DNA of 64,000 nucleotides. Origin: Candidatus Omnitrophota bacterium (GTDB lineage Bacteria > Omnitrophota > Gorgyraeia > 2-01-FULL-45-10). Under the pieces are notes generated by a model. The model was given only the letters and a program-made list of their open reading frames with translations, searched no databases and was not told the DNA's origin. Location: assembly GCA_043798375.1 (NCBI GenBank), contig JAZDOS010000006.1:9523-73522 (forward strand). Reading direction: 5' to 3'. The position numbers were made by a program, and so were the translations under genes. Below are positions 2,848-10,431 of the stretch, piece by piece; within the stretch, counting starts at the first letter, position 1; every line of letters begins with the position of its first letter.

Positions 2848-2888
2848 TGGCGGGGTAGCTCAGTCTGGCAGAGCAGTCGGCTCATACC
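2848..2888 (+). repeat. 41-nt 5' fragment of the tRNA(CAU) gene, a direct repeat of 10209..10249 (att-type island boundary); a TATAAT box lies about 17 nt upstream
   Basis: Exact identity tggcggggtagctcagtctggcagagcagtcggctcatacc at both sites. Identity ends inside the anticodon loop. Confidence 0.85.
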
Positions 2889-3675: not shown

Positions 3676-4836
3676 ATGAATAGTCAAATATTGAATAGAG
3701 ATATTAGCCATGTAGAGGAAAGTTTTAAAAAATATCTGCTTTTAAAAGATACTATTGTCATTAGAGTTGTTCTGGCTACCATATTCGCAAATAGGCTTGA
3801 AGGCGACCCACTATGGCTGTTAATAGTCGCACCGCCCTCCTCGGCAAAAACGGAGATTATTAACTCGTTGAATGGACTACCAGAAATATTTCCGCTATCA
3901 AGCCTAACCGCTCATACATTAGTAAGCGGCATGATTACTAACGAGGATGGCAAAAAAGATGACAAGGATAAAAGCCTTATACTTCAACTTGATGGGAAAA
4001 TTCTGGCATTGAAGGATTTTACCTCGGTATTATCAATGCACAGAGAGCAGAGGGCCGAAATTCTATCCCAATTAAGAGAAATATATGACGGAGCATATAT
4101 AAAACGTTTTGGCACAGGTCAGGTAACGGACTGGAAAGGCAAGATAGGTATTATCGCTGGGGTTACGCCTATAATAGATAATCACAATAGCGTTTCCCAG
4201 ATGTTAGGGGAAAGATTTATTCAATTTCGGATGGAATCACCAGACCTTGTAGAAATGGCTCTTAGGGGCATAGACAACACTGGTAGGGAATGTGGGACAA
4301 GGCAACAGCTAATAGAGATGGTTAGAGATTTTGCAATAAATATACCTATGCCAACAAATGAAATCACCATACCCTCTGCAATTAGAAATAAAATAGCACA
4401 CTTAGCGGCTTTTTGCGTTGTTGCAAGAAGTGGGGTTTTACGGGACGGGCGTAGCCGTGAAATCATATATACTCCTGCACCCGAAGCCCCGCCAAGGTTA
4501 GCGAAACAATTTGTCAAGTTAGGTCAAGGATTGGCAGTTATTAGTAAACGAAGCAGTATATCTACGGAAGACTATGCAGTTATTTATAGAATTGGATTAG
4601 ACATAATTCTTAAACAACGTAGAGATATAATATTTCTGCTTGAGGCGTGCCCTAAATCCGTAAAGGACATAGCAAGAATAACGAGGTATCCTAATCCTAC
4701 TGTCTATAAAATTCTTGAGGACTTACGAAGCCTATCATTGATAGACTCAAGCGACGAACAGGCGTGGTCGCTAACGGATTCGGCAACGATGTCGTTGGGT
4801 GAAATTAAACCGTTTTCCGAAACGTCGGGGGTATAA
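3676..4836 (+). CDS. P-loop NTPase-like protein with C-terminal winged helix; putative island replication/initiator-type protein
   Basis: Degenerate Walker A LLIVAPPSSAKTE, Walker B-like KILALKDF, and C-terminal wHTH KSVKDIARITRYPNPTVYKILEDL. Sits in the rep position of an integrative element. Confidence 0.4.
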   Translation: MNSQILNRDISHVEESFKKYLLLKDTIVIRVVLATIFANRLEGDPLWLLIVAPPSSAKTEIINSLNGLPEIFPLSSLTAHTLVSGMITNEDGKKDDKDKSLILQLDGKILALKDFTSVLSMHREQRAEILSQLREIYDGAYIKRFGTGQVTDWKGKIGIIAGVTPIIDNHNSVSQMLGERFIQFRMESPDLVEMALRGIDNTGRECGTRQQLIEMVRDFAINIPMPTNEITIPSAIRNKIAHLAAFCVVARSGVLRDGRSREIIYTPAPEAPPRLAKQFVKLGQGLAVISKRSSISTEDYAVIYRIGLDIILKQRRDIIFLLEACPKSVKDIARITRYPNPTVYKILEDLRSLSLIDSSDEQAWSLTDSATMSLGEIKPFSETSGV

Positions 4837-4924
4837 GTGGTAACTTAAAATTTCAATTATTTAATTATAATATTTTAATTTTATAGATATATCCGACTTT
4901 TCGGAAAAATAGAAAGGTGGGCGT

Positions 4925-5542
4925 GTGAATACGGAAAGTAACGAAAACATACGAAATACGGAAATTTTGTCAGTGAACCAAAAGACGGCCATAACTTTAC
5001 TTTGCAACGGCCTAAGCAAGGCTGAAGTTGCGAGAAGGTTAGGCATAGAACGTGAAACAGTTTCCAAGTGGTGCAATCACGATCCCGATTTTCAACAGGC
5101 GTTAGAAAATAGGCGTAAAGAAATATGGGGCGAGAACTCATTAAGCAAGGAAGCGGAGTTAATAAGACAAGTTAAAGATACAGACTTGTTGACCCTTGAG
5201 GGCATAGAGGCCAGACTCAGGCTTGTTGACGCCCTTCTCCTAACGGATGTTATTGAACGTGATGATGGCAGAACCAAAACCATACAACGCCTTCAGATGA
5301 ATGTTGAAGCAGTGCGAAGCTATGTGGAGACTGTTCTTGCGGGAAAATCTGTGAATGATAGCGTTAACATTATTGTTAACAGGTATAAATTTTTGCTTCT
5401 CTCCTCATTGCAGAACATTCTAAAAGATGTCGCAGGAGAAGATAAGGCAACGCAAATACTGGTGTTCTTAGCACAAAAAATGGAACGCATAGAAAACGTG
5501 GAGAATTCGGCGAATGGACAGGACGAAAAACCTGAAAACTAA
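4925..5542 (+). CDS. HTH-domain protein, terminase-small-subunit-like or regulatory
   Basis: N-terminal LSVNQKTAITLLCNGLSKAEVARRLGIERETVSKW helix-turn-helix, followed by a coiled-coil-like remainder. Confidence 0.35.
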   Translation: MNTESNENIRNTEILSVNQKTAITLLCNGLSKAEVARRLGIERETVSKWCNHDPDFQQALENRRKEIWGENSLSKEAELIRQVKDTDLLTLEGIEARLRLVDALLLTDVIERDDGRTKTIQRLQMNVEAVRSYVETVLAGKSVNDSVNIIVNRYKFLLLSSLQNILKDVAGEDKATQILVFLAQKMERIENVENSANGQDEKPEN

Positions 5543-5900
5543 AACTATTATTGAATGTTTGCTCAGGTTAGAGGAGCTTACAAAACTATCTGTGGCAATT
5601 CATATAGCCTTTAAAAAATTTATTATATGGGAGGCTCAAAAGCGCATGGGCAATATAAAAGCCGAGCTTTTAACCGCCGAAGAACGGCGTTTTATAGGGG
5701 AATACTCCGCAAAATATATGCCTGCCATACGACTAAATCTTGAGCAGAATATAAGCGACTGGATAATCTGCCACGAGCAAAAACGGCAAACACTGAAAAC
5801 GCTAAGAGAAATATTTCCCGATGATATTCTATTGTTGTATATACGAGCCTCCCACATAAATGACCTAAAATCTATCCTACCTATACCGCTAAACGCCTAA
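5514..5900 (+). CDS. hypothetical protein (island)
   Basis: 128-aa ORF in an operon with its neighbours; no recognisable motif. Confidence 0.4.
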   Translation: MDRTKNLKTKTIIECLLRLEELTKLSVAIHIAFKKFIIWEAQKRMGNIKAELLTAEERRFIGEYSAKYMPAIRLNLEQNISDWIICHEQKRQTLKTLREIFPDDILLLYIRASHINDLKSILPIPLNA

Positions 5901-6127
5901 TCGTTCTCTCCCTTGTCTTCTCGGTTATAATGTGATAGTCTATACAGCAAGAAGTAGTAGTTAGCTCTTTAAAAGGAAGTGTTTTTAACGAGGACTTTCC
6001 TCAGTTTTATCAATCAACGTCTAAGGAGGGAGGCCCTTGCCTTATGGGCAAGCGGTCTTTCGCTTTAACTTAGACGTTGGGCGGAGGAATTAAAAATGCT
6101 TGCCCACTTTATTTTATAAGCACATAG

Positions 6128-6580
6128 GTGATAATTATGTTTTTCAAGCCAAAATGGTATAAAAAATTACCATTACATCTCAGGCCCGATAACAATAAAG
6201 TCGAAAACCTTGAGTCATTACGAAGAAAATTGGGTTTTCCCGATGAAATTTTTTTTATGGGCATAGTAAATTCCCGATGGACTGTAATACAGGCGCAAAA
6301 AGCAACTCTTGAAACGTTAAAAATAGATAAACCTGAAGCTACTGAAGCAGAATTGTGGGAAGGCGTTCTTTTTACAAGGTTAAAAATGAAGCTTATGATG
6401 CCAACGCCAGACGATCTACCAAGAGATGAAATTTTACATAGAATGGAAAATGTCAGTAATATAGTTGCCAATATCCATAGTTTTGATGAGCTGTTAAATT
6501 ATATCATTTCTATGGACGAAAAAAATCTTATGGATGATGACCCAACACAAAGACAAATTGACGAAGCGTTATTCGGATAG
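6128..6580 (+). CDS. hypothetical protein (island)
   Basis: 150-aa ORF ending 10 nt upstream of the Mrr_N-like gene. Confidence 0.4.
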   Translation: MIIMFFKPKWYKKLPLHLRPDNNKVENLESLRRKLGFPDEIFFMGIVNSRWTVIQAQKATLETLKIDKPEATEAELWEGVLFTRLKMKLMMPTPDDLPRDEILHRMENVSNIVANIHSFDELLNYIISMDEKNLMDDDPTQRQIDEALFG

Positions 6581-6589
6581 CATTTATCT

Positions 6590-6928
6590 ATGAATAGTGA
6601 TGGTATATCTTCTGAAATATTGTATCAGTTTTTAATACTTAAAACCCTCGTTGATATTGGTGGCTCAGCAAGGAGAGATAGAGTTTTAAATCATATAAAA
6701 CTACATTATAATAATTTCTTATCAAAAAAAGACTTAGAAGATTACGAAAGCGATAATGGAGAGCGTTGGAAAAATCACGCAAGTTTTGCTCGACAACATT
6801 TAATCTATGTTGGGTATTTAGCCAGAAACTCGCCTTATGGTATCTGGGAAATTACAGATGTTGGCAGGAGCAAGTGTGCGGAGTGGATTAAGCTTTTAAA
6901 ACAAGATTTAACACATTCTGGACTCTAA
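6590..6928 (+). CDS. standalone Mrr_N-like winged-helix protein (N-terminal DNA-binding domain of Mrr-type restriction enzymes, with no nuclease domain)
   Basis: ILYQFLILKTLVDIGGSARRDRVLNHI ... GERWKNHASFARQHLIYVGYLARNSPYGIWEITDVGRS parallels the E. coli Mrr N-terminus (YKNRAGWAHDRLKRAGL...GKWCLTPAG). Confidence 0.5.
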   Translation: MNSDGISSEILYQFLILKTLVDIGGSARRDRVLNHIKLHYNNFLSKKDLEDYESDNGERWKNHASFARQHLIYVGYLARNSPYGIWEITDVGRSKCAEWIKLLKQDLTHSGL

Positions 6929-7075: not shown

Positions 7076-7528
7076 ATGAACAGGCTTTTTATCACAATAT
7101 TATGCTTCATTTTCTTAGCGGGCTGTGCCACATCTTCAGGATATTATACAGACCCTAATAGCAAGGGTTATAAAGAGCCTCATTATGAAGGCTCCTGTTT
7201 AAAATGTAATAGGGTTTTTAGGTTTAGCAGGGCTGTATATGATGCAAGCTCAACACGCTTTGGGGCGTGCCCATTTTGCGGAATGGAGCAAAATTTAGAA
7301 ATGGCAAATCAGCGTTATTTGTATGACCAGCAAAATCAGAGTGGTTCATCAGATAATATATTAGATATGGTAAATGCTTTCAAGGGAACATCAATGCTTC
7401 CTTACCAAGTCAATTCAAACATCGAAAGCAACGTTACTAAATCTCGACAGGTTACAGTGTTTGGGCCGAGCAGAAAAAATATTTACAATAGAAATGGTCA
7501 ACAGGTCGGATACATTGATGGTCAATAA
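7076..7528 (+). CDS. lipoprotein with CxxC...CxxC zinc-ribbon
   Basis: Signal peptide with lipobox FLAGC; CLKCN and CPFCG motifs. Confidence 0.55.
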   Translation: MNRLFITILCFIFLAGCATSSGYYTDPNSKGYKEPHYEGSCLKCNRVFRFSRAVYDASSTRFGACPFCGMEQNLEMANQRYLYDQQNQSGSSDNILDMVNAFKGTSMLPYQVNSNIESNVTKSRQVTVFGPSRKNIYNRNGQQVGYIDGQ

Positions 7529-7547
7529 AATTTTTTGAGGTAAAAAT

Positions 7548-7991
7548 ATGAAATTCATACTGATTGGCTTAACGGCAATATTGTGCTTTCACAGTCCAGC
7601 ATATGCGTGGACGGAGTATAAAAATATCCGTTATGTCGACTTAGACGGCGATTCGGCTGATGAGATTGTCATTGAATCAAAACACGGGGCAGGCTATGGG
7701 CATTATATCGAGGACGTGCGAATATTCAAGGATGCGTATCCTGCGTTAGAGTTGATGTTCACGCAAAGGACGCTCGATAGCTACTCCGTTGATGAGTATA
7801 ATTACGATGTCGTATCTATTGTTGAATTTTCTGAACCAAACCAGAAAAGTGGTATACGGGATATAATGACTAAAACAGAGAAAAAGTATTATAAGGATAA
7901 CGAGCATAAGGTCTTTGACAGAACCGAAGATTTAGGCACTAAGATATTCAAGTGGGACGGAGTGAAATTTGGTGAGGCTAATGTTCAGTGA
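7548..7991 (+). CDS. secreted hypothetical protein
   Basis: N-terminal signal peptide MKFILIGLTAILCFHSPAYA. Confidence 0.5.
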   Translation: MKFILIGLTAILCFHSPAYAWTEYKNIRYVDLDGDSADEIVIESKHGAGYGHYIEDVRIFKDAYPALELMFTQRTLDSYSVDEYNYDVVSIVEFSEPNQKSGIRDIMTKTEKKYYKDNEHKVFDRTEDLGTKIFKWDGVKFGEANVQ

Positions 7992-8125
7992 TAAAATAAA
8001 CGGCGTTGCCGAAAAAATAAACACCCCTGTCTAAAATACTCCCCATTATACCTTGTCATGGTTTGTCATACCTTGCTTATCTCACCTGTTCTCAATAGGT
8101 TATAACTGTTAAATATAGGCATAGA

Positions 8126-8141
8126 TGGCACAGTTATTGCT
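8126..8141 (+). promoter_or_regulatory. Sigma-54 (RpoN) -24/-12 promoter TGGCACagttaTTGCT about 45 nt upstream of the LamG/PEP-CTERM gene
   Basis: Matches TGGCACG-N4-TTGCW with GG/GC spacing conserved. Confidence 0.55.
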
Positions 8142-8184
8142 TATATCTATTATGAGAAGTTATATCAAATAAGGGAGGTATGGC

Positions 8185-8991
8185 ATGAGACGTCTTATAG
8201 TGGCTTGCATATTTGCGTTGTTGATGGGCTGTCCGACTTTAGGGCATGCTGAAAATTATGCGTTGGATTTCGATGGAGTAGATGATTATGTTAGTGCTCC
8301 CGACAGTAATTCGTTGGACTTGACAAGTGGATTAACCATCGAGGCGTGGATTAATCCTCGCGAATATGCGAATGGCGCTAATGTGATAGCATCAAAATGG
8401 TATCCTAGCTCGTATATTTTCAAGCTACACAACGATGGAAGCGGAAAGTTGCGTATAGAATTATCTAAGGGTGGCTTCAATGACCTAGCTAATCTTAAAG
8501 GGAACACTGCGGTTTCACTTGACCAATGGACACATGTAGCTACGACCTTCAATGGGGCAGAAACAAAGCTTTTTGTTAATGGTAGTTTCGATGGCTCTCA
8601 GACTCAATCTGGTTCAATTGTTCCGAACTCAAAACCGTTTTATATTGGAAGTGTGGATGGTGGCGAAGTATTTCATGGATTGATTGATGAGGTTCGTATT
8701 TGGAATTATGCTCGGTCGCAACAGCAGTTACAGGATTATATGAATGGCCCGCTAACAGGTAATGAACAAGGCTTGATGGGCTATTGGAATTTTGATGAAG
8801 GCACGGGAAATACGCTCGGCGATTTAACGCAATTTGGGAATGATGGCCAGATATATGGTGCTCGATGGGTTTCGTCAGATAGCCCAGTAACTACGCCTGT
8901 CCCAGAGCCAACATCGCTAATGCTTCTTAGTATGGGTTTATTAGGAGCAGGAGTATTAAAGGCCAAAAGGCGAAATTTCAAAAAATCATAG
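8185..8991 (+). CDS. LamG-like (concanavalin A-like lectin/Laminin_G_3) secreted protein with C-terminal PEP-CTERM sorting signal
   Basis: Signal peptide; GLTIEAWINP...WTHVATTFNG...LFVNG...IDEVRIWN Laminin_G_3 pattern; C-terminal VPEPTSLMLLSMGLLGAGVLKAKRR has the PEP motif, a TM helix and a basic tail. Confidence 0.75.
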   Translation: MRRLIVACIFALLMGCPTLGHAENYALDFDGVDDYVSAPDSNSLDLTSGLTIEAWINPREYANGANVIASKWYPSSYIFKLHNDGSGKLRIELSKGGFNDLANLKGNTAVSLDQWTHVATTFNGAETKLFVNGSFDGSQTQSGSIVPNSKPFYIGSVDGGEVFHGLIDEVRIWNYARSQQQLQDYMNGPLTGNEQGLMGYWNFDEGTGNTLGDLTQFGNDGQIYGARWVSSDSPVTTPVPEPTSLMLLSMGLLGAGVLKAKRRNFKKS

Positions 8992-9083: not shown

Positions 9084-10046
9084 TCAAAACTTTAAACTAA
9101 GCGGATGAAACTTCTCAAGCGATTTCAGAAGCTCGCCTTCATCGTAGCCGATGTAACTCTTAACCGTAACGCTAATGTCGCTATGGCGCAATAACCTGCT
9201 AACGTCCACAATATTCAGCCCCTTTCGTAATAGCATCGTCGCAAAGCTTCGGCGTAAGAGGTGAGGCCGTAGCTTCTTACCAAAGCTGAGGTTATTATTT
9301 AACTCTCCAAACAGAAGTTGCAAGCCTCTCGTTCCGAAAGAGCCGTCGCCTCGCCTTTTATCCTGCCCGCTACGGTTGCTATCAACAAACAGATTATCAG
9401 TCTCACGCTTCAGGGTCATCCTTACCTGCAAGTAGTTCATCAATAGTTGCTTTAATGTGCTACAAATAGGCACTACTTCCTGTCGGCGTGTTTTGGTATG
9501 CATTAATCGTAGTGCGTTGTTGTTTAGGTCAATGTCCTTTATCTTGAGGTTGAGTGCCTCACTACGGCGTAACCCTGCAAATACAAAAACTCCCACAAGA
9601 GCAAGGTCTCGAAGATAGGCTATCCTATAACGTGGTTTCCGTCGGCTCATCATATATCGCATTAACTCCTTTACCTGCTTTTCGTCCAGTGCTTCGGGTA
9701 GTTTCTTCTCTACCTGCGGACGAATGACGTTGAGCATAGGGTCTTTACCTATGTATTCACGCCGAAGCAGGAATTTCGAGAACGCTTTTAACGCCTGCCA
9801 ATTGGTAAGGTTGGTGCGAGGAGTAATGCCACTTTTTAGGCGGTCAATAAGAAATTGCCTTATGTTCGTTTCGTTGAAGTCTTTTAACTGCGGTTCCTTG
9901 ATTTGTAGCCATTGACGAAGGTATGCGACGAATACCCGCATACTCATCCTATGCCATCTTAAAGTCGCTGGCCTTGATTGCCTTTCCCATTCATGCCACA
10001 ACATATACTCATTAAACACACTTTCCAATGTCTTCTCCATATACAT
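9084..10046 (-). CDS. int: tyrosine-type site-specific integrase (phage integrase family)
   Basis: Catalytic R (LRRSEALNL), HxxR (HLLRRSFATML) and H...Y (LLRHSDISVTVKSYIGYDE). Adjacent to the tRNA. Confidence 0.85.
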   Translation of the reverse strand: MYMEKTLESVFNEYMLWHEWERQSRPATLRWHRMSMRVFVAYLRQWLQIKEPQLKDFNETNIRQFLIDRLKSGITPRTNLTNWQALKAFSKFLLRREYIGKDPMLNVIRPQVEKKLPEALDEKQVKELMRYMMSRRKPRYRIAYLRDLALVGVFVFAGLRRSEALNLKIKDIDLNNNALRLMHTKTRRQEVVPICSTLKQLLMNYLQVRMTLKRETDNLFVDSNRSGQDKRRGDGSFGTRGLQLLFGELNNNLSFGKKLRPHLLRRSFATMLLRKGLNIVDVSRLLRHSDISVTVKSYIGYDEGELLKSLEKFHPLSLKF

Positions 10047-10209
10047 ATCGGCAAAACAGGGTTGCTAACAGAGGAAATTTGTGATATAATCGGCGTTACT
10101 TTGAAATGATTTACTGTTGTCGTCGAATAGTTGGGGCGTGATAACTGCTCGGTGAGATTTTGACTTTTAGCGGTTTTGTCGCAAGTCTTTTTACGTAACG
10201 AAGTTACGT

Positions 10210-10286
10210 GGCGGGGTAGCTCAGTCTGGCAGAGCAGTCGGCTCATACCCGGCGTGTCACTGGTTCAAATCCAGTCCCCGCTACCA
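10210..10286 (+). tRNA. tRNA with CAU anticodon (Met, initiator or Ile2-lysidine not distinguishable), 77 nt with encoded CCA
   Basis: Cloverleaf: acceptor GGCGGGG/CCCCGCU (G1-U72), D-arm GCUC/GAGC, anticodon stem GUCGG/CCGGC with loop CUCAUAC, T-arm ACUGG-UUCAAAU-CCAGU. Confidence 0.85.
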
Positions 10287-10411: not shown

Positions 10412-10431
10412 AAATCCAGTCCCCGCTACCA
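10412..10431 (+). repeat. 20-nt copy of the tRNA 3' end (aaatccagtccccgctacca) 125 nt downstream of the tRNA; second att-like scar or tRNA-like minihelix remnant
   Basis: Exact match to the tRNA 3' terminus. Preceded by ggcgggc and the palindrome gcccgcctctggcgggc. Confidence 0.6.

What the first reader, a model, noticed from the sequence alone, without database searches (positions are those of the whole stretch)
6128..6928. Standalone Mrr_N-like winged-helix protein on the island, in a two-gene cassette
The 112-aa product aligns position by position with the N-terminal DNA-recognition domain of Mrr-type type IV restriction enzymes (GERWKNHASFARQHLIYVGYLARNSPYGIWEITDVGRS versus E. coli Mrr YKNRAGWAHDRLKRAGL...GKWCLTPAG), but it has no nuclease domain. 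It is translationally coupled to an upstream 150-aa unknown with a 10-nt gap. A detached sensor domain of a defense nuclease carried by a mobile element could be a regulator, a decoy or anti-restriction factor, or part of an uncharacterised two-component defense or counter-defense module.
Basis: partly seen in the sequence, partly recalled or inferred. Interest (0 to 1): 0.55.

Follow-up and report, generated by a model that had tools for sequence, protein, structure and literature searches.

The report
Lone Mrr_N winged-helix island cargo gene
A small mobile island in an uncultured Omnitrophota genome carries a real, selectively maintained 112-aa protein that is only the DNA-reading winged-helix domain also found on many defence enzymes; it looks like a free-moving single gene of untested function, not half of a conserved two-gene system.

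Summary
ORF 6590-6928 (112 aa) matches Pfam Mrr_N above the curated cutoff (41.3 vs 29.5 bits, E=1.7e-10), models as a winged helix (pLDDT 84.9) and has no nuclease domain. It lies 9 nt downstream of a 147-aa ORF (true start ATG 6137).

The "Mrr sensor in a two-gene cassette" reading is only partly supported.
- Of the 150 nearest clusters, 1 carries Mrr_cat. The domain is C-terminal in 95, tandem in 27, standalone in 21 and N-terminal in 1.
- Close standalone homologues (40-69% identity, dN/dS 0.11-0.29) occur in 10 other gene contexts. Both flanks differ in them and none contains ORF1.
- ORF1 has one partial homologue, in the same slot of a sister island whose contig ends before any downstream gene.
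- A sister island with an 89%-identical integrase lacks the wH gene, so it is dispensable cargo.

The setting is a 7.36-kb, satellite-like island integrated in tRNA-Met.

Best reading (confidence 0.45): an autonomous, probably dimeric DNA reader with no effector that acts by binding alone, as a regulator or as a masker of sites read by wH-guided nucleases.

It is a new member of a known domain family. Function is untested; interest is moderate to low.

The parts
6590..6928 (+). Standalone Mrr_N-family winged-helix protein, 112 aa (NCBI MFH0763483.1, 'winged helix-turn-helix domain-containing protein')
   Evidence: Pfam PF14338 41.3 bits > GA 29.5. AF2 pLDDT 84.9, pTM 0.80, wH topology plus a C-terminal helix at 90-110. 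Close homologues are all 112-120 aa. dN/dS 0.11-0.29.
6137..6580 (+). ORF1: 147 aa, acidic (pI 5.25), predicted all-helical, no known family. Ends in TAG 9 nt before the wH start, in the same reading frame.
   Evidence: No Pfam, NCBIfam, PADLOC or PHROG hit. Only a self hit in the 5.8-billion-protein search. One partial homologue in L037: 70% identity over 47 aa, same position. AF2 pLDDT 48.6, unusable.
6014..6080 (+). Conserved junction hairpin between the island backbone and the cargo
   Evidence: Fold -45.4 kcal/mol, z=-5.0. No Rfam match. Conserved in L025 and L037; the outer 12-bp helix is 100% paired with 5 compensatory pairs.
6090..6120 (+). Conserved block TTAAAAATGCTTGCCC...TATAAG after the hairpin, just upstream of the first cargo gene (possible promoter or leader)
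   Evidence: Near-identical in the window, L025 and L037. Function is inferred only.
2848..2888 (+). attL: displaced copy of the 5' half of tRNA-Met
   Evidence: Perfect 41-nt direct repeat with 10209-10249.
10209..10286 (+). attR (10209-10249) within the intact tRNA-Met(CAT) gene 10210-10286
   Evidence: ARAGORN, Rfam tRNA 61 bits, direct repeat.
9084..10046 (-). Island tyrosine recombinase (integrase)
   Evidence: XerC/XerD-like, 142-152 bits, below equivalog cutoffs. phrog_1 integrase E=9e-41. 89% identical to the integrase of sister island L021.
4925..5542 (+). Backbone gene: HTH protein resembling a small terminase subunit (205 aa)
   Evidence: CENP-B_N and Terminase_5. phrog_7344 terminase small subunit E=6e-9. 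74-87% identical in sister islands.
5514..5900 (+). Backbone gene: 128-aa ORF overlapping the TerS-like gene
   Evidence: 54-77% identical in L021, L025 and L037, with the same overlap.
3676..4836 (+). 386-aa protein with a C-terminal wHTH (the ATPase call rests only on a Walker A-like motif seen by eye); possible replication or regulatory protein of the island
   Evidence: HTH_5/TrmB at residues 314-359. Not similar by BLASTP to the ~400-aa gene at this position in sister islands.
7076..8991 (+). Further cargo: 150-aa lipoprotein-like with Cys pairs, 147-aa secreted-like, 268-aa LamG-like PEP-CTERM protein
   Evidence: PEP-CTERM TIGR02595 21.7 bits > 16; TafC-like region. None is shared with sister islands.

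Best explanation
The 112-aa protein is an autonomous, effector-less winged-helix DNA reader carried as dispensable single-gene cargo on a small integrative, satellite-like island.

It belongs to a large Mrr_N subfamily in which this wH is normally the C-terminal targeting module of diverse, often defence-type proteins. The standalone form keeps the family-wide conserved recognition helix and wing. It adds a subfamily-specific C-terminal helix, which I infer mediates dimerisation. With no catalytic partner of its own, it most likely acts by occupancy, binding the same DNA feature that its fused relatives read.

Two outcomes fit binding alone. One is repression of genes. The other, which I favour slightly, is masking of sites against wH-guided nucleases, which would protect the element or its helper phage.

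ORF1 is co-transcribed with it here but is not a required partner of the family.

Shown: family membership, predicted fold, absence of an effector, purifying selection, single-gene mobility, cargo status.
Inferred: DNA binding, dimerisation, the ligand, the biological outcome.
For: - Membership and fold.
- Homology to the wH half of fused relatives: the standalone family aligns end to end with the C-terminal half of the ~190-aa class (hhalign probability 99.9%, E=3.9e-36).
- Conserved reading face: across 191 domains from 150 clusters, R59, W60, R68 (helix 3) and S81, G84, W86, E87, T89, G92 (wing) are 76-99% conserved. The C-terminal helix 90-110 is not conserved family-wide (mean 0.19) but is conserved within the standalone subfamily (E98, W99, Q105).
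- Fusion partners of relatives: HSDR_N, T5orf172/GIY-YIG, AIPR, TIR, Mrr_cat, UvrD, RAMA.
- Purifying selection: dN/dS 0.11-0.29.
- Single-gene mobility: in four contigs whose wH proteins are 82-92% identical, the DNA diverges right after the stop codon, and the upstream genes differ. No neighbour is shared across the 10 other contexts.
- Cargo, not core: sister islands L021 and L023 (L021's integrase is 89% identical to the window's) have no wH gene. L025 has an HSDR_N nuclease with a weak C-terminal Mrr_N match in the same slot.
- Structural neighbours are small dimeric wH DNA binders: STIV F93, Sso10a-2, AspA, PadR.
- Precedent: the isolated wH domain of DpnI binds DNA alone and competes with the full enzyme, reducing cleavage (PMC3874153).
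Against: - No experiment exists on any standalone Mrr_N protein. Even in EcoKMrr the Mrr-N domain's DNA binding is only 'presumed' (PMC3874153).
- Net charge is near neutral (pI 6.4-9.4), which is unremarkable for a DNA binder.
- The choice between regulator and site masking is not resolved by any result here.
- ORF1 and the wH gene share the lowest GC on the island (0.35 and 0.34) and a 9-nt gap. ORF1 recurs in L037. A local functional pairing therefore remains possible.
- Nearly all homologue contigs are short (1-4.7 kb), so more distant partners could be missed.
Confidence: 0.45

Rival explanations
1. ORF1 and the wH protein form a two-component module, either toxin-antitoxin-like or effector plus DNA sensor. 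The wH would be a promiscuous partner that pairs with different upstream genes in different elements.
For: - 9-nt gap, same strand, matching low GC.
- ORF1 recurs at the same slot in L037.
- In L004 and L006 the wH follows a RES toxin-domain gene (Pfam 24.4 bits > 23.2) that has no upstream antitoxin ORF.
- In most contexts a same-strand ORF ends 6-75 nt upstream of the wH.
- The subfamily-specific C-terminal helix could be a partner-binding element.
Against: - ORF1 is absent from all 10 other wH contexts.
- In the ERZ1426855 contig that carries P0008, the wH follows the backbone after a 230-nt gap with no room for ORF1.
- L005 (92% identical wH to L004) keeps only about 15 nt of the RES gene, and L012 has a different upstream sequence.
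- Some upstream neighbours are implausible toxins, such as a DUF3192 lipoprotein or an Xre HTH.
- The C-terminal helix is conserved although the neighbours vary.
- ORF1 has no recognisable effector domain and no PADLOC hit.
Confidence: 0.2
2. The wH protein acts in trans as a specificity or sensor subunit, or as a controller-type regulator, of a restriction or defence enzyme encoded elsewhere in the host or in a helper phage.
For: - Distant relatives (33-44% identity; a helical N-terminus plus the wH) are separate small genes inside R-M-like operons.
- L007: wH 197 aa, then a PLD+SNF2 helicase, then an Eco57I-type methylase.
- L009: Eco57I-like methylase, then wH 187 aa with its start overlapping the methylase's stop.
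- L001: the wH lies downstream of HsdS and HsdM.
Against: - The window's island has no R-M or nuclease gene.
- The close standalone family lacks the N-terminal region that those relatives have, which may be the part that docks to the enzyme.
- There is no conserved enzyme neighbour.
Confidence: 0.12
3. The wH protein is a core island function: an excisionase (recombination directionality factor) or a life-cycle repressor.
For: - wH proteins often serve as directionality factors.
- Standalone homologues recur beside recombinase or excisionase modules: L014 (serine recombinase), L015 and L030 (HTH_17; L030 also has a resolvase).
Against: - Sister islands L021 and L023 (L021's integrase is 89% identical, with the same backbone) have no wH gene.
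- The gene sits in the variable cargo segment.
- The wH is more diverged (61%) than the backbone TerS-like gene (87%) between the window and the ERZ1426855 contig.
Confidence: 0.05
4. ORF1 and the wH are one gene, either split by a nonsense mutation or joined by TAG read-through. That would give a 263-aa protein with the family's usual layout of an N-terminal region followed by a C-terminal wH.
For: - The two ORFs are in the same frame, separated only by TAG plus 3 codons.
- 95 of the 150 nearest clusters have a C-terminal wH after an uncharacterised N-terminal region.
Against: - Being in the same frame has a 1-in-3 chance expectation.
- TAG ends 10 of the 39 long ORFs in the window, so the standard code applies.
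- The wH start Met and N-terminus align with those of standalone homologues that have unrelated upstream DNA.
- ORF1 shows no similarity to the N-terminal regions of fused relatives (phmmer best E=0.64; hhalign probability 0.09%).
Confidence: 0.03

Closest known systems
N-terminal domain of EcoKMrr (Pfam Mrr_N, PF14338), a type IV methyl-directed restriction enzyme
   Same: Same Pfam family by profile. Same register of the helix-3 and wing motif (hhalign). Presumed DNA-binding winged helix (PMC3874153).
   Different: No Mrr_cat nuclease. Pairwise similarity to EcoKMrr is not significant. In the nearest 150 clusters the domain is C-terminal, tandem or alone rather than N-terminal, and only 1 has Mrr_cat.
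wH reader domains of DpnI, HhiV4I and the wH-fusion endonucleases (6mA-dependent type IV systems; PMC11037411)
   Same: A winged helix used as a DNA or modification reader attached to varied nuclease domains. The isolated DpnI wH binds DNA alone and competes with the enzyme (PMC3874153), which is the mode of action proposed here.
   Different: Different wH sequence family; no similarity was tested or claimed. Those proteins are fusions with nucleases, while this one has no effector. Modification specificity here is unknown.
Uncharacterised proteins of about 190 aa with a helical N-terminus and a C-terminal Mrr_N wH (alignment A6), some in R-M-like operons
   Same: The wH halves are clearly homologous (probability 99.9%, 35% identity). 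Both are small proteins without an enzyme domain.
   Different: The standalone family lacks the ~100-aa N-terminal region and has a longer C-terminal helix. It sits among mobile-element cargo rather than inside R-M operons.
Small dimeric wH DNA-binding proteins of archaeal viruses and plasmids (STIV F93, Sso10a-2, AspA) and PadR-type regulators
   Same: Best structural matches: Foldseek probability 0.99-1.0, TM 0.49-0.62. Similar size, with a wH core plus a C-terminal helix.
   Different: E-values are weak (3e-3 or worse), sequence identity is 9-20%, and no family relationship is shown. These matches indicate only the generic wH fold.

Membership tests
Pfam Mrr_N (PF14338) winged-helix domain family | Profile score at or above the curated gathering score, covering most of the model | tested here: met
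   41.3 bits against 29.5; profile positions 8-84 of 87; the only family hit at E<=1. 147 of the 150 nearest clusters also match Mrr_N.
Pfam Mrr_N (PF14338) winged-helix domain family | Winged-helix fold (H1-b1-H2-H3-wing) | tested here: met
   AF2 pLDDT 84.9, pTM 0.80, with elements H8-23, E26-28, H29-43, H46-54, H59-73, E85-88, H90-110. All top Foldseek hits are wH proteins. This is a prediction, not a solved structure.
Pfam Mrr_N (PF14338) winged-helix domain family | Family-wide conserved motif RW.N...W.R (helix 3) and SP.G.WEIT..GR (wing) | tested here: met
   R59, W60, N62, R68, S81, P82, G84, W86, E87, I88, T89, G92 and R93 are all present. F66 replaces the consensus W in the W.R element. 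Conservation is 76-99% for most of these across 191 domains.
Pfam Mrr_N (PF14338) winged-helix domain family | Binds DNA, possibly modified DNA | not testable with these tools
   Only 'presumed' even for EcoKMrr (PMC3874153).
Mrr-type type IV restriction endonuclease | Mrr_N joined to a C-terminal Mrr_cat PD-(D/E)XK-variant nuclease in one polypeptide | tested here: not met
   The protein is 112 aa with a single domain. No nuclease family is found in it or in any island protein.
Mrr-type type IV restriction endonuclease | Modification-dependent DNA cleavage | not testable with these tools
   Needs biochemistry.
Conserved two-gene cassette (toxin-antitoxin-like or sensor-effector) of ORF1 plus wH | The two genes co-occur across genomes | tested here: not met
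   ORF1 is absent from 10 other distinct wH contexts on 17 contigs (16 checked by tblastn; the ERZ1426855 contig by its gene list only). It is also absent from the 5.8-billion-protein database apart from the self hit. The converse, whether ORF1 is always followed by a wH, is inconclusive: the only homologue (L037) is cut by the contig end.
Conserved two-gene cassette (toxin-antitoxin-like or sensor-effector) of ORF1 plus wH | Tight same-strand coupling | tested here: met
   9-nt gap with no terminator-like site between the genes.
Conserved two-gene cassette (toxin-antitoxin-like or sensor-effector) of ORF1 plus wH | The partner carries a recognisable toxin or effector domain | tested here: not met
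   No Pfam, NCBIfam, PADLOC or PHROG hit. The AF2 model has pLDDT 48.6.
Recombination directionality factor or island core regulator | Co-inherited with the cognate integrase and backbone | tested here: not met
   L021 (integrase 89% identical) and L023 (same gene order) have no wH gene.
Integron gene cassette | An attC-like hairpin after each cassette, with a divergently placed IntI | tested here: not met
   Only the junction hairpin exists. Intergenic regions after the other cargo genes do not fold above shuffled controls. The integrase scores 73 bits against a 265-bit cutoff for integron integrase, and it is convergent with the cargo.
Phage satellite or PICI-like integrative island (context only) | Integrase, att repeats, small size, replication-type gene, TerS-like packaging gene | tested here: inconclusive
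   Integrase, a 41-nt att repeat, 7.36 kb in length and a TerS-like HTH (phrog_7344, E=6e-9) are present. No helper phage or induction evidence is available, and the replication-gene assignment is weak.

The most novel reading that the evidence does not exclude
The effector-less Mrr_N reader is a counter-defence or interference factor. A satellite-like island would carry a bare copy of the DNA-reading module used by wH-guided nucleases. This copy would compete for their target sites and so protect the element or its helper phage. In this island lineage it might work together with the acidic ORF1. Sister islands carry a nuclease-wH fusion in the same slot, consistent with an arms race played out at one cargo position.
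Probability: 0.15. Interest if true: 0.6.

Novelty: new member of a known kind. Interest (0 to 1): 0.3.

Why it matters
If the binding-only reading is right, this would be a simple natural example of a defence-system sensor domain released from its effector and spread as single-gene cargo. That could mean a minimal regulator, or a competitive anti-restriction factor of a kind not yet described for Mrr_N.

The survey also shows that the Pfam name "Mrr N-terminal domain" is misleading for this subfamily. Its nearest relatives rarely have the domain at the N-terminus or joined to Mrr_cat. At least 21 of the 150 nearest clusters are domain-only proteins that nobody has characterised.

As it stands, the gene is already annotated as a wHTH protein. 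Nothing here points to a new principle, so the practical value is a modest lead for defence and counter-defence screens.

Tried and rejected
- Split gene or TAG read-through. The two ORFs share a frame, but TAG is a normal stop here, the wH start aligns with standalone homologues, and ORF1 is unlike any N-terminal region of fused relatives.
- Obligate RES-wH pairing. RES is upstream only in L004 and L006. L005 and L012, with 88-92% identical wH, lack it.
- Integron-like cassette array. The junction hairpin ends in GTTGGGC or GTTGGGT (GTTRRRY), but no such hairpin follows the other cargo genes, and the integrase is not IntI-like.
- Excisionase or core regulator. A sister island with a near-identical integrase lacks the gene.
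- Conserved upstream promoter or cassette boundary. Upstream DNA is not conserved across contexts.
- Solved-structure relatives by sequence: none. Foldseek against PDB and BFVD gave only generic wH hits.
- ORF1 structure: single-sequence AF2 was unusable (pLDDT 48.6), so no fold search was run on it.
- Phage and plasmid genomes. Neither protein has a match in phages. The wH search of plasmids found only a fused copy inside an AAA ATPase of Clostridium butyricum; ORF1 was not searched against plasmids. IMG/VR also has no relative.
- Literature. No paper in the library mentions PF14338 or standalone Mrr_N proteins.
- DNA of the key contig in ERZ1426855 (wH directly after the backbone) was not available.
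Full report
**1. Observation**

Two same-strand ORFs lie at 6128/6137-6580 and 6590-6928. The 112-aa product matches a single Pfam family, Mrr_N (PF14338): E=1.7e-10, 41.3 bits against a gathering score of 29.5, residues 16-95 on profile positions 8-84 of 87. Nothing else appears even at E<=1. NCBIfam, PADLOC and PHROGs give no hit.

It is weak as a pairwise match (hhalign E=0.0012, probability 19%; BLASTP E=0.68). The membership claim therefore rests on the profile, not on E. coli Mrr.

Small corrections:
- The upstream ORF starts at ATG 6137 and is 147 aa. AGGTGA lies 5 nt upstream, NCBI calls it at 147 aa, and the L037 homologue starts with the same MFFKP.
- The gap between the two ORFs is 9 nt.

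**2. Which family it really belongs to**

An exhaustive profile search finds 2,433 representative clusters at E<=0.001 and 565 at E<=1e-10. Of the best 150, 147 match Mrr_N but only one also has Mrr_cat. Other partners are HSDR_N (3), T5orf172/MUG113 (2), SeqA_N (2), and one each of AIPR, a TIR effector domain, UvrD, RAMA and others. Most have no second Pfam domain.

Re-mapping the domain in these 150 clusters gives this split:

| Position of the wH | Clusters |
|---|---|
| C-terminal (median protein length 198 aa) | 95 |
| Tandem (up to five copies, P0012) | 27 |
| Standalone (135 aa or less) | 21 |
| Internal | 6 |
| N-terminal | 1 |

The standalone family aligns end to end with the C-terminal half of the ~190-aa class (hhalign probability 99.9%, E=3.9e-36, 35% identity). 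So this is not a detached Mrr N-terminus. It is the bare form of a promiscuous wH module that usually sits at the C-terminus of other proteins, several of them defence-type.

**3. Structure and conservation**

The AF2 model is confident (pLDDT 84.9, pTM 0.80). It shows a winged helix with a short extra helix at 46-54 and a long C-terminal helix at 90-110. Foldseek finds only generic small wH proteins such as STIV F93, Sso10a-2, AspA, PadR/LmrR and FOXN1, with E of 3e-3 or worse. The viral library adds nothing more. No solved structure matches by sequence.

Across 191 domains from the 150 clusters, the best-conserved residues lie on helix 3 (R59, W60, R68) and the wing (S81, G84, W86, E87, T89, G92), at 76-99%. 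The C-terminal helix is not conserved family-wide (mean 0.19). Within the close standalone family, though, E98, W99 and Q105 are nearly invariant.

From this I infer two things. The standalone and fused members read the same kind of ligand. The C-terminal helix is a subfamily-specific addition, plausibly for dimerisation.

The family is under purifying selection, with dN/dS of 0.11-0.29 in seven pairs.

**4. The island**

A perfect 41-nt direct repeat (2848-2888 and 10209-10249) duplicates the 5' half of tRNA-Met(CAT), which lies at 10210-10286. It brackets 7,361 bp of low-GC DNA, 36-41% against about 50% outside.

The island's contents:
- a tyrosine recombinase (9084-10046, minus strand);
- a 386-aa protein with a C-terminal wHTH (an ATPase assignment rests only on a Walker A-like motif I saw by eye);
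- a 205-aa HTH protein resembling small terminase subunits (phrog_7344, E=6e-9);
- an overlapping 128-aa ORF;
- then ORF1, the wH gene, two lipoprotein- or secreted-like ORFs, and a LamG-like PEP-CTERM protein.

The host is a Candidatus Omnitrophota MAG.

Sister islands share the TerS-like gene (74-87% identity), the overlapping ORF (54-77%) and, in L021, the integrase (89%). Everything between the overlapping ORF and the recombinase differs:

| Island | First cargo genes after the backbone |
|---|---|
| L021, L023 | unrelated small ORFs, no wH |
| L022 | a PrsW-like protein |
| L025-L027 | a 350-aa HSDR_N nuclease-like protein (29.1 bits) with a weak C-terminal Mrr_N match (16.5 bits, E=0.0097) |
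| ERZ1426855 contig carrying P0008 | the wH directly, after a 230-nt gap |
| L037 | an ORF1 homologue, then the contig ends |

The wH gene is therefore dispensable cargo in a variable slot, not a core island function.

**5. Is ORF1 plus wH a cassette?**

For a local pairing:
- 9-nt gap;
- the two lowest GC values on the island (0.35 and 0.34);
- a shared conserved upstream element;
- one recurrence of ORF1 in the same slot in L037: 70% identity over 47 aa, tblastn E=2e-18, codon-position differences of 13, 6 and 18.

Against a conserved system:
- Close standalone homologues (40-69% identity, 112-120 aa) occur in 10 other distinct contexts on 17 contigs, and none contains ORF1. Sixteen contigs were checked by tblastn and the ERZ1426855 contig by its gene list.
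- Their neighbours are unrelated to one another:
  - downstream of HsdS and HsdM, after two small ORFs (L001);
  - after a 325-aa unknown (L003);
  - after a RES-domain gene (L004, L006; 24.4 bits > 23.2);
  - after an Xre HTH beside a serine recombinase (L014);
  - after a 206-aa unknown on a contig that also has an excisionase-like HTH_17 (L015);
  - between a 62-aa ORF and HTH_17 plus a resolvase (L030);
  - 6 nt after a DUF3192 lipoprotein in an array of small ORFs (L033).
- Among four contigs whose wH proteins are 82-92% identical, the DNA diverges immediately after the stop codon in all four. Upstream, RES is present in two, reduced to about 15 nt in L005, and replaced in L012.
- Upstream DNA is not conserved across contexts.

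The wH gene therefore moves as a single-gene unit.

ORF1 itself has no family, no effector motif and no full-length homologue among 5.8 billion proteins. It is acidic (pI 5.25), and its AF2 model is unusable.

**6. The same-frame curiosity**

ORF1 and the wH gene are in the same frame, separated only by TAG and three codons. I tested a split gene or read-through and reject it for three reasons:
- TAG terminates 10 of the 39 long ORFs in the window.
- The wH Met and N-terminus align with those of standalone homologues that have unrelated upstream DNA.
- ORF1 has no similarity to the N-terminal regions of fused relatives (phmmer best E=0.64; hhalign probability 0.09%).

**7. Mechanism**

Shown here:
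- a selectively maintained wH of the Mrr_N family;
- no effector in the protein or on the island;
- a conserved reading face shared with effector-fused relatives;
- single-gene mobility;
- cargo status on a mobile element.

Inferred: it binds DNA, probably as a dimer through helix 90-110, and acts by occupancy alone.

Two outcomes fit. One is transcriptional repression, which is the prior for small wH proteins and fits the structural neighbours. The other is masking of sites read by wH-guided nucleases. The second is favoured by the defence-type fusion partners, by the nuclease-wH fusion in the same slot of L025, and by the faster divergence of the wH (61%) than of the backbone (87%) between related islands. 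There is also a published precedent: the isolated DpnI wH domain binds alone and competes with the full enzyme (PMC3874153).

I put 0.45 on the binding-only autonomous model. Within it I lean slightly towards interference rather than plain regulation, but no result here separates the two.

Rivals:
- a local two-component module with ORF1: 0.2;
- a trans-acting subunit or controller for an enzyme encoded elsewhere: 0.12, suggested by L007 and L009, where helical-N-terminus-plus-wH proteins sit inside R-M-like operons;
- a core island function: 0.05;
- a split gene: 0.03.

**8. Comparison with what is known**

It is a member of the Pfam Mrr_N domain family: profile, predicted fold and motif were all tested and met. 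It is not an Mrr-type restriction enzyme, because the nuclease domain was tested for and is absent.

Reviews describe Mrr-N as a "presumed" DNA-binding domain (PMC3874153). Mrr_N is also listed among the domains fused to McrB GTPases (PMC11090510) and to Menshen NsnA (PMC12065111). wH readers fused to nucleases act as 6mA-dependent type IV systems (PMC11037411). I found no paper on standalone Mrr_N proteins.

NCBI already annotates this gene as a wHTH-domain protein.

**9. Verdict**

It is a new member of a known kind: a domain-only representative of a large, poorly named wH family, with untested function. Interest is 0.3.

The most novel reading not excluded is a competitive anti-restriction factor carried by a satellite-like island. 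I give it a probability of about 0.15, and it would deserve about 0.6 if true.

**10. Limits**

- Almost all homologue contigs are 1-4.7 kb, so partners further away cannot be seen.
- The two most informative contigs could not be read through: L037 is truncated, and the ERZ1426855 contig has no DNA on file.
- No complex prediction was possible.

Noticed in passing
window 6014-6080 (context 5985-6127); L025 ~9120-9250; L037 ~1446-1590: A very stable hairpin (-45.4 kcal/mol, z=-5.0) with no Rfam match sits exactly between the conserved island backbone and the variable cargo. It is conserved in three islands whose cargo differs. The outer 12-bp helix is 100% paired, with 5 positions changed on both sides (slid controls 0-1). 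A conserved block TTAAAAATGCTTGCCC..TATAAG follows it. L037 has an extra GCAC-GAAA-GTGC mini-hairpin in the apical loop. It could be a terminator, a leader, a small RNA, or a recombination hotspot for cargo exchange.
   Followed up: partly
window 2848-2888 and 10209-10249; tRNA-Met 10210-10286: The 7,361-bp island is integrated into the 5' half of tRNA-Met(CAT), with a perfect 41-nt direct repeat. Most tRNA-targeting islands duplicate the 3' end instead.
   Followed up: partly
window 10267-10286 and 10412-10431: A second perfect 20-nt direct repeat copies the 3' end of the same tRNA-Met 145 bp downstream. It may be the scar of another integration event on the other side of the tRNA.
   Followed up: no
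window 3676-5900 and 9084-10046: The island backbone looks like a phage satellite: an integrase, a 386-aa protein with a C-terminal wHTH (with a Walker A-like motif seen by eye), a TerS-like HTH protein (phrog_7344, E=6e-9) and an overlapping 128-aa ORF. The backbone recurs in several Omnitrophota metagenome contigs, paired with either tyrosine or serine recombinases.
   Followed up: partly
window 6137-6928: ORF1 and the wH ORF share one reading frame and are separated only by TAG plus CAT TTA TCT. Tested and judged coincidental.
   Followed up: yes
L025:9285-10337 (also L026, L027): In the same cargo slot, a sister island carries a 350-aa protein with an HSDR_N PD-(D/E)XK-like N-terminus (29.1 bits) and a weak C-terminal Mrr_N match (16.5 bits). 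This is a candidate wH-guided nuclease. An AbiEii gene lies a few kb downstream, past the island's serine recombinase.
   Followed up: partly
L004:214-1171 and L006:263-1226: A RES toxin-domain gene (24.4 bits > 23.2) has no upstream antitoxin ORF and is followed after 55 nt by the standalone wH. This could be a toxin-first RES-wH pair. L005, whose wH is 92% identical to L004's, retains only the last ~15 nt of the RES gene.
   Followed up: partly
P0012 (717 aa, ENA metagenome contig of 44 kb): This protein consists of five tandem Mrr_N domains (Pfam 194.9 bits, 5 stretches). Tandem wH arrays make up 27 of the 150 nearest clusters.
   Followed up: no
L007:175-7654 and L009:2-3450: Small proteins with a helical N-terminus and a C-terminal wH (187-197 aa) are separate genes within R-M-like operons: a PLD+SNF2 helicase plus an Eco57I/TaqI_C methylase in L007, and an Eco57I-like methylase plus a 541-aa unknown in L009. 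This looks like an uncharacterised accessory subunit or controller.
   Followed up: partly
window 8185-8991: The island cargo includes a LamG-like surface protein with a PEP-CTERM sorting signal (TIGR02595, 21.7 bits > 16). That implies the host has an exosortase system and that the element alters the cell surface.
   Followed up: no
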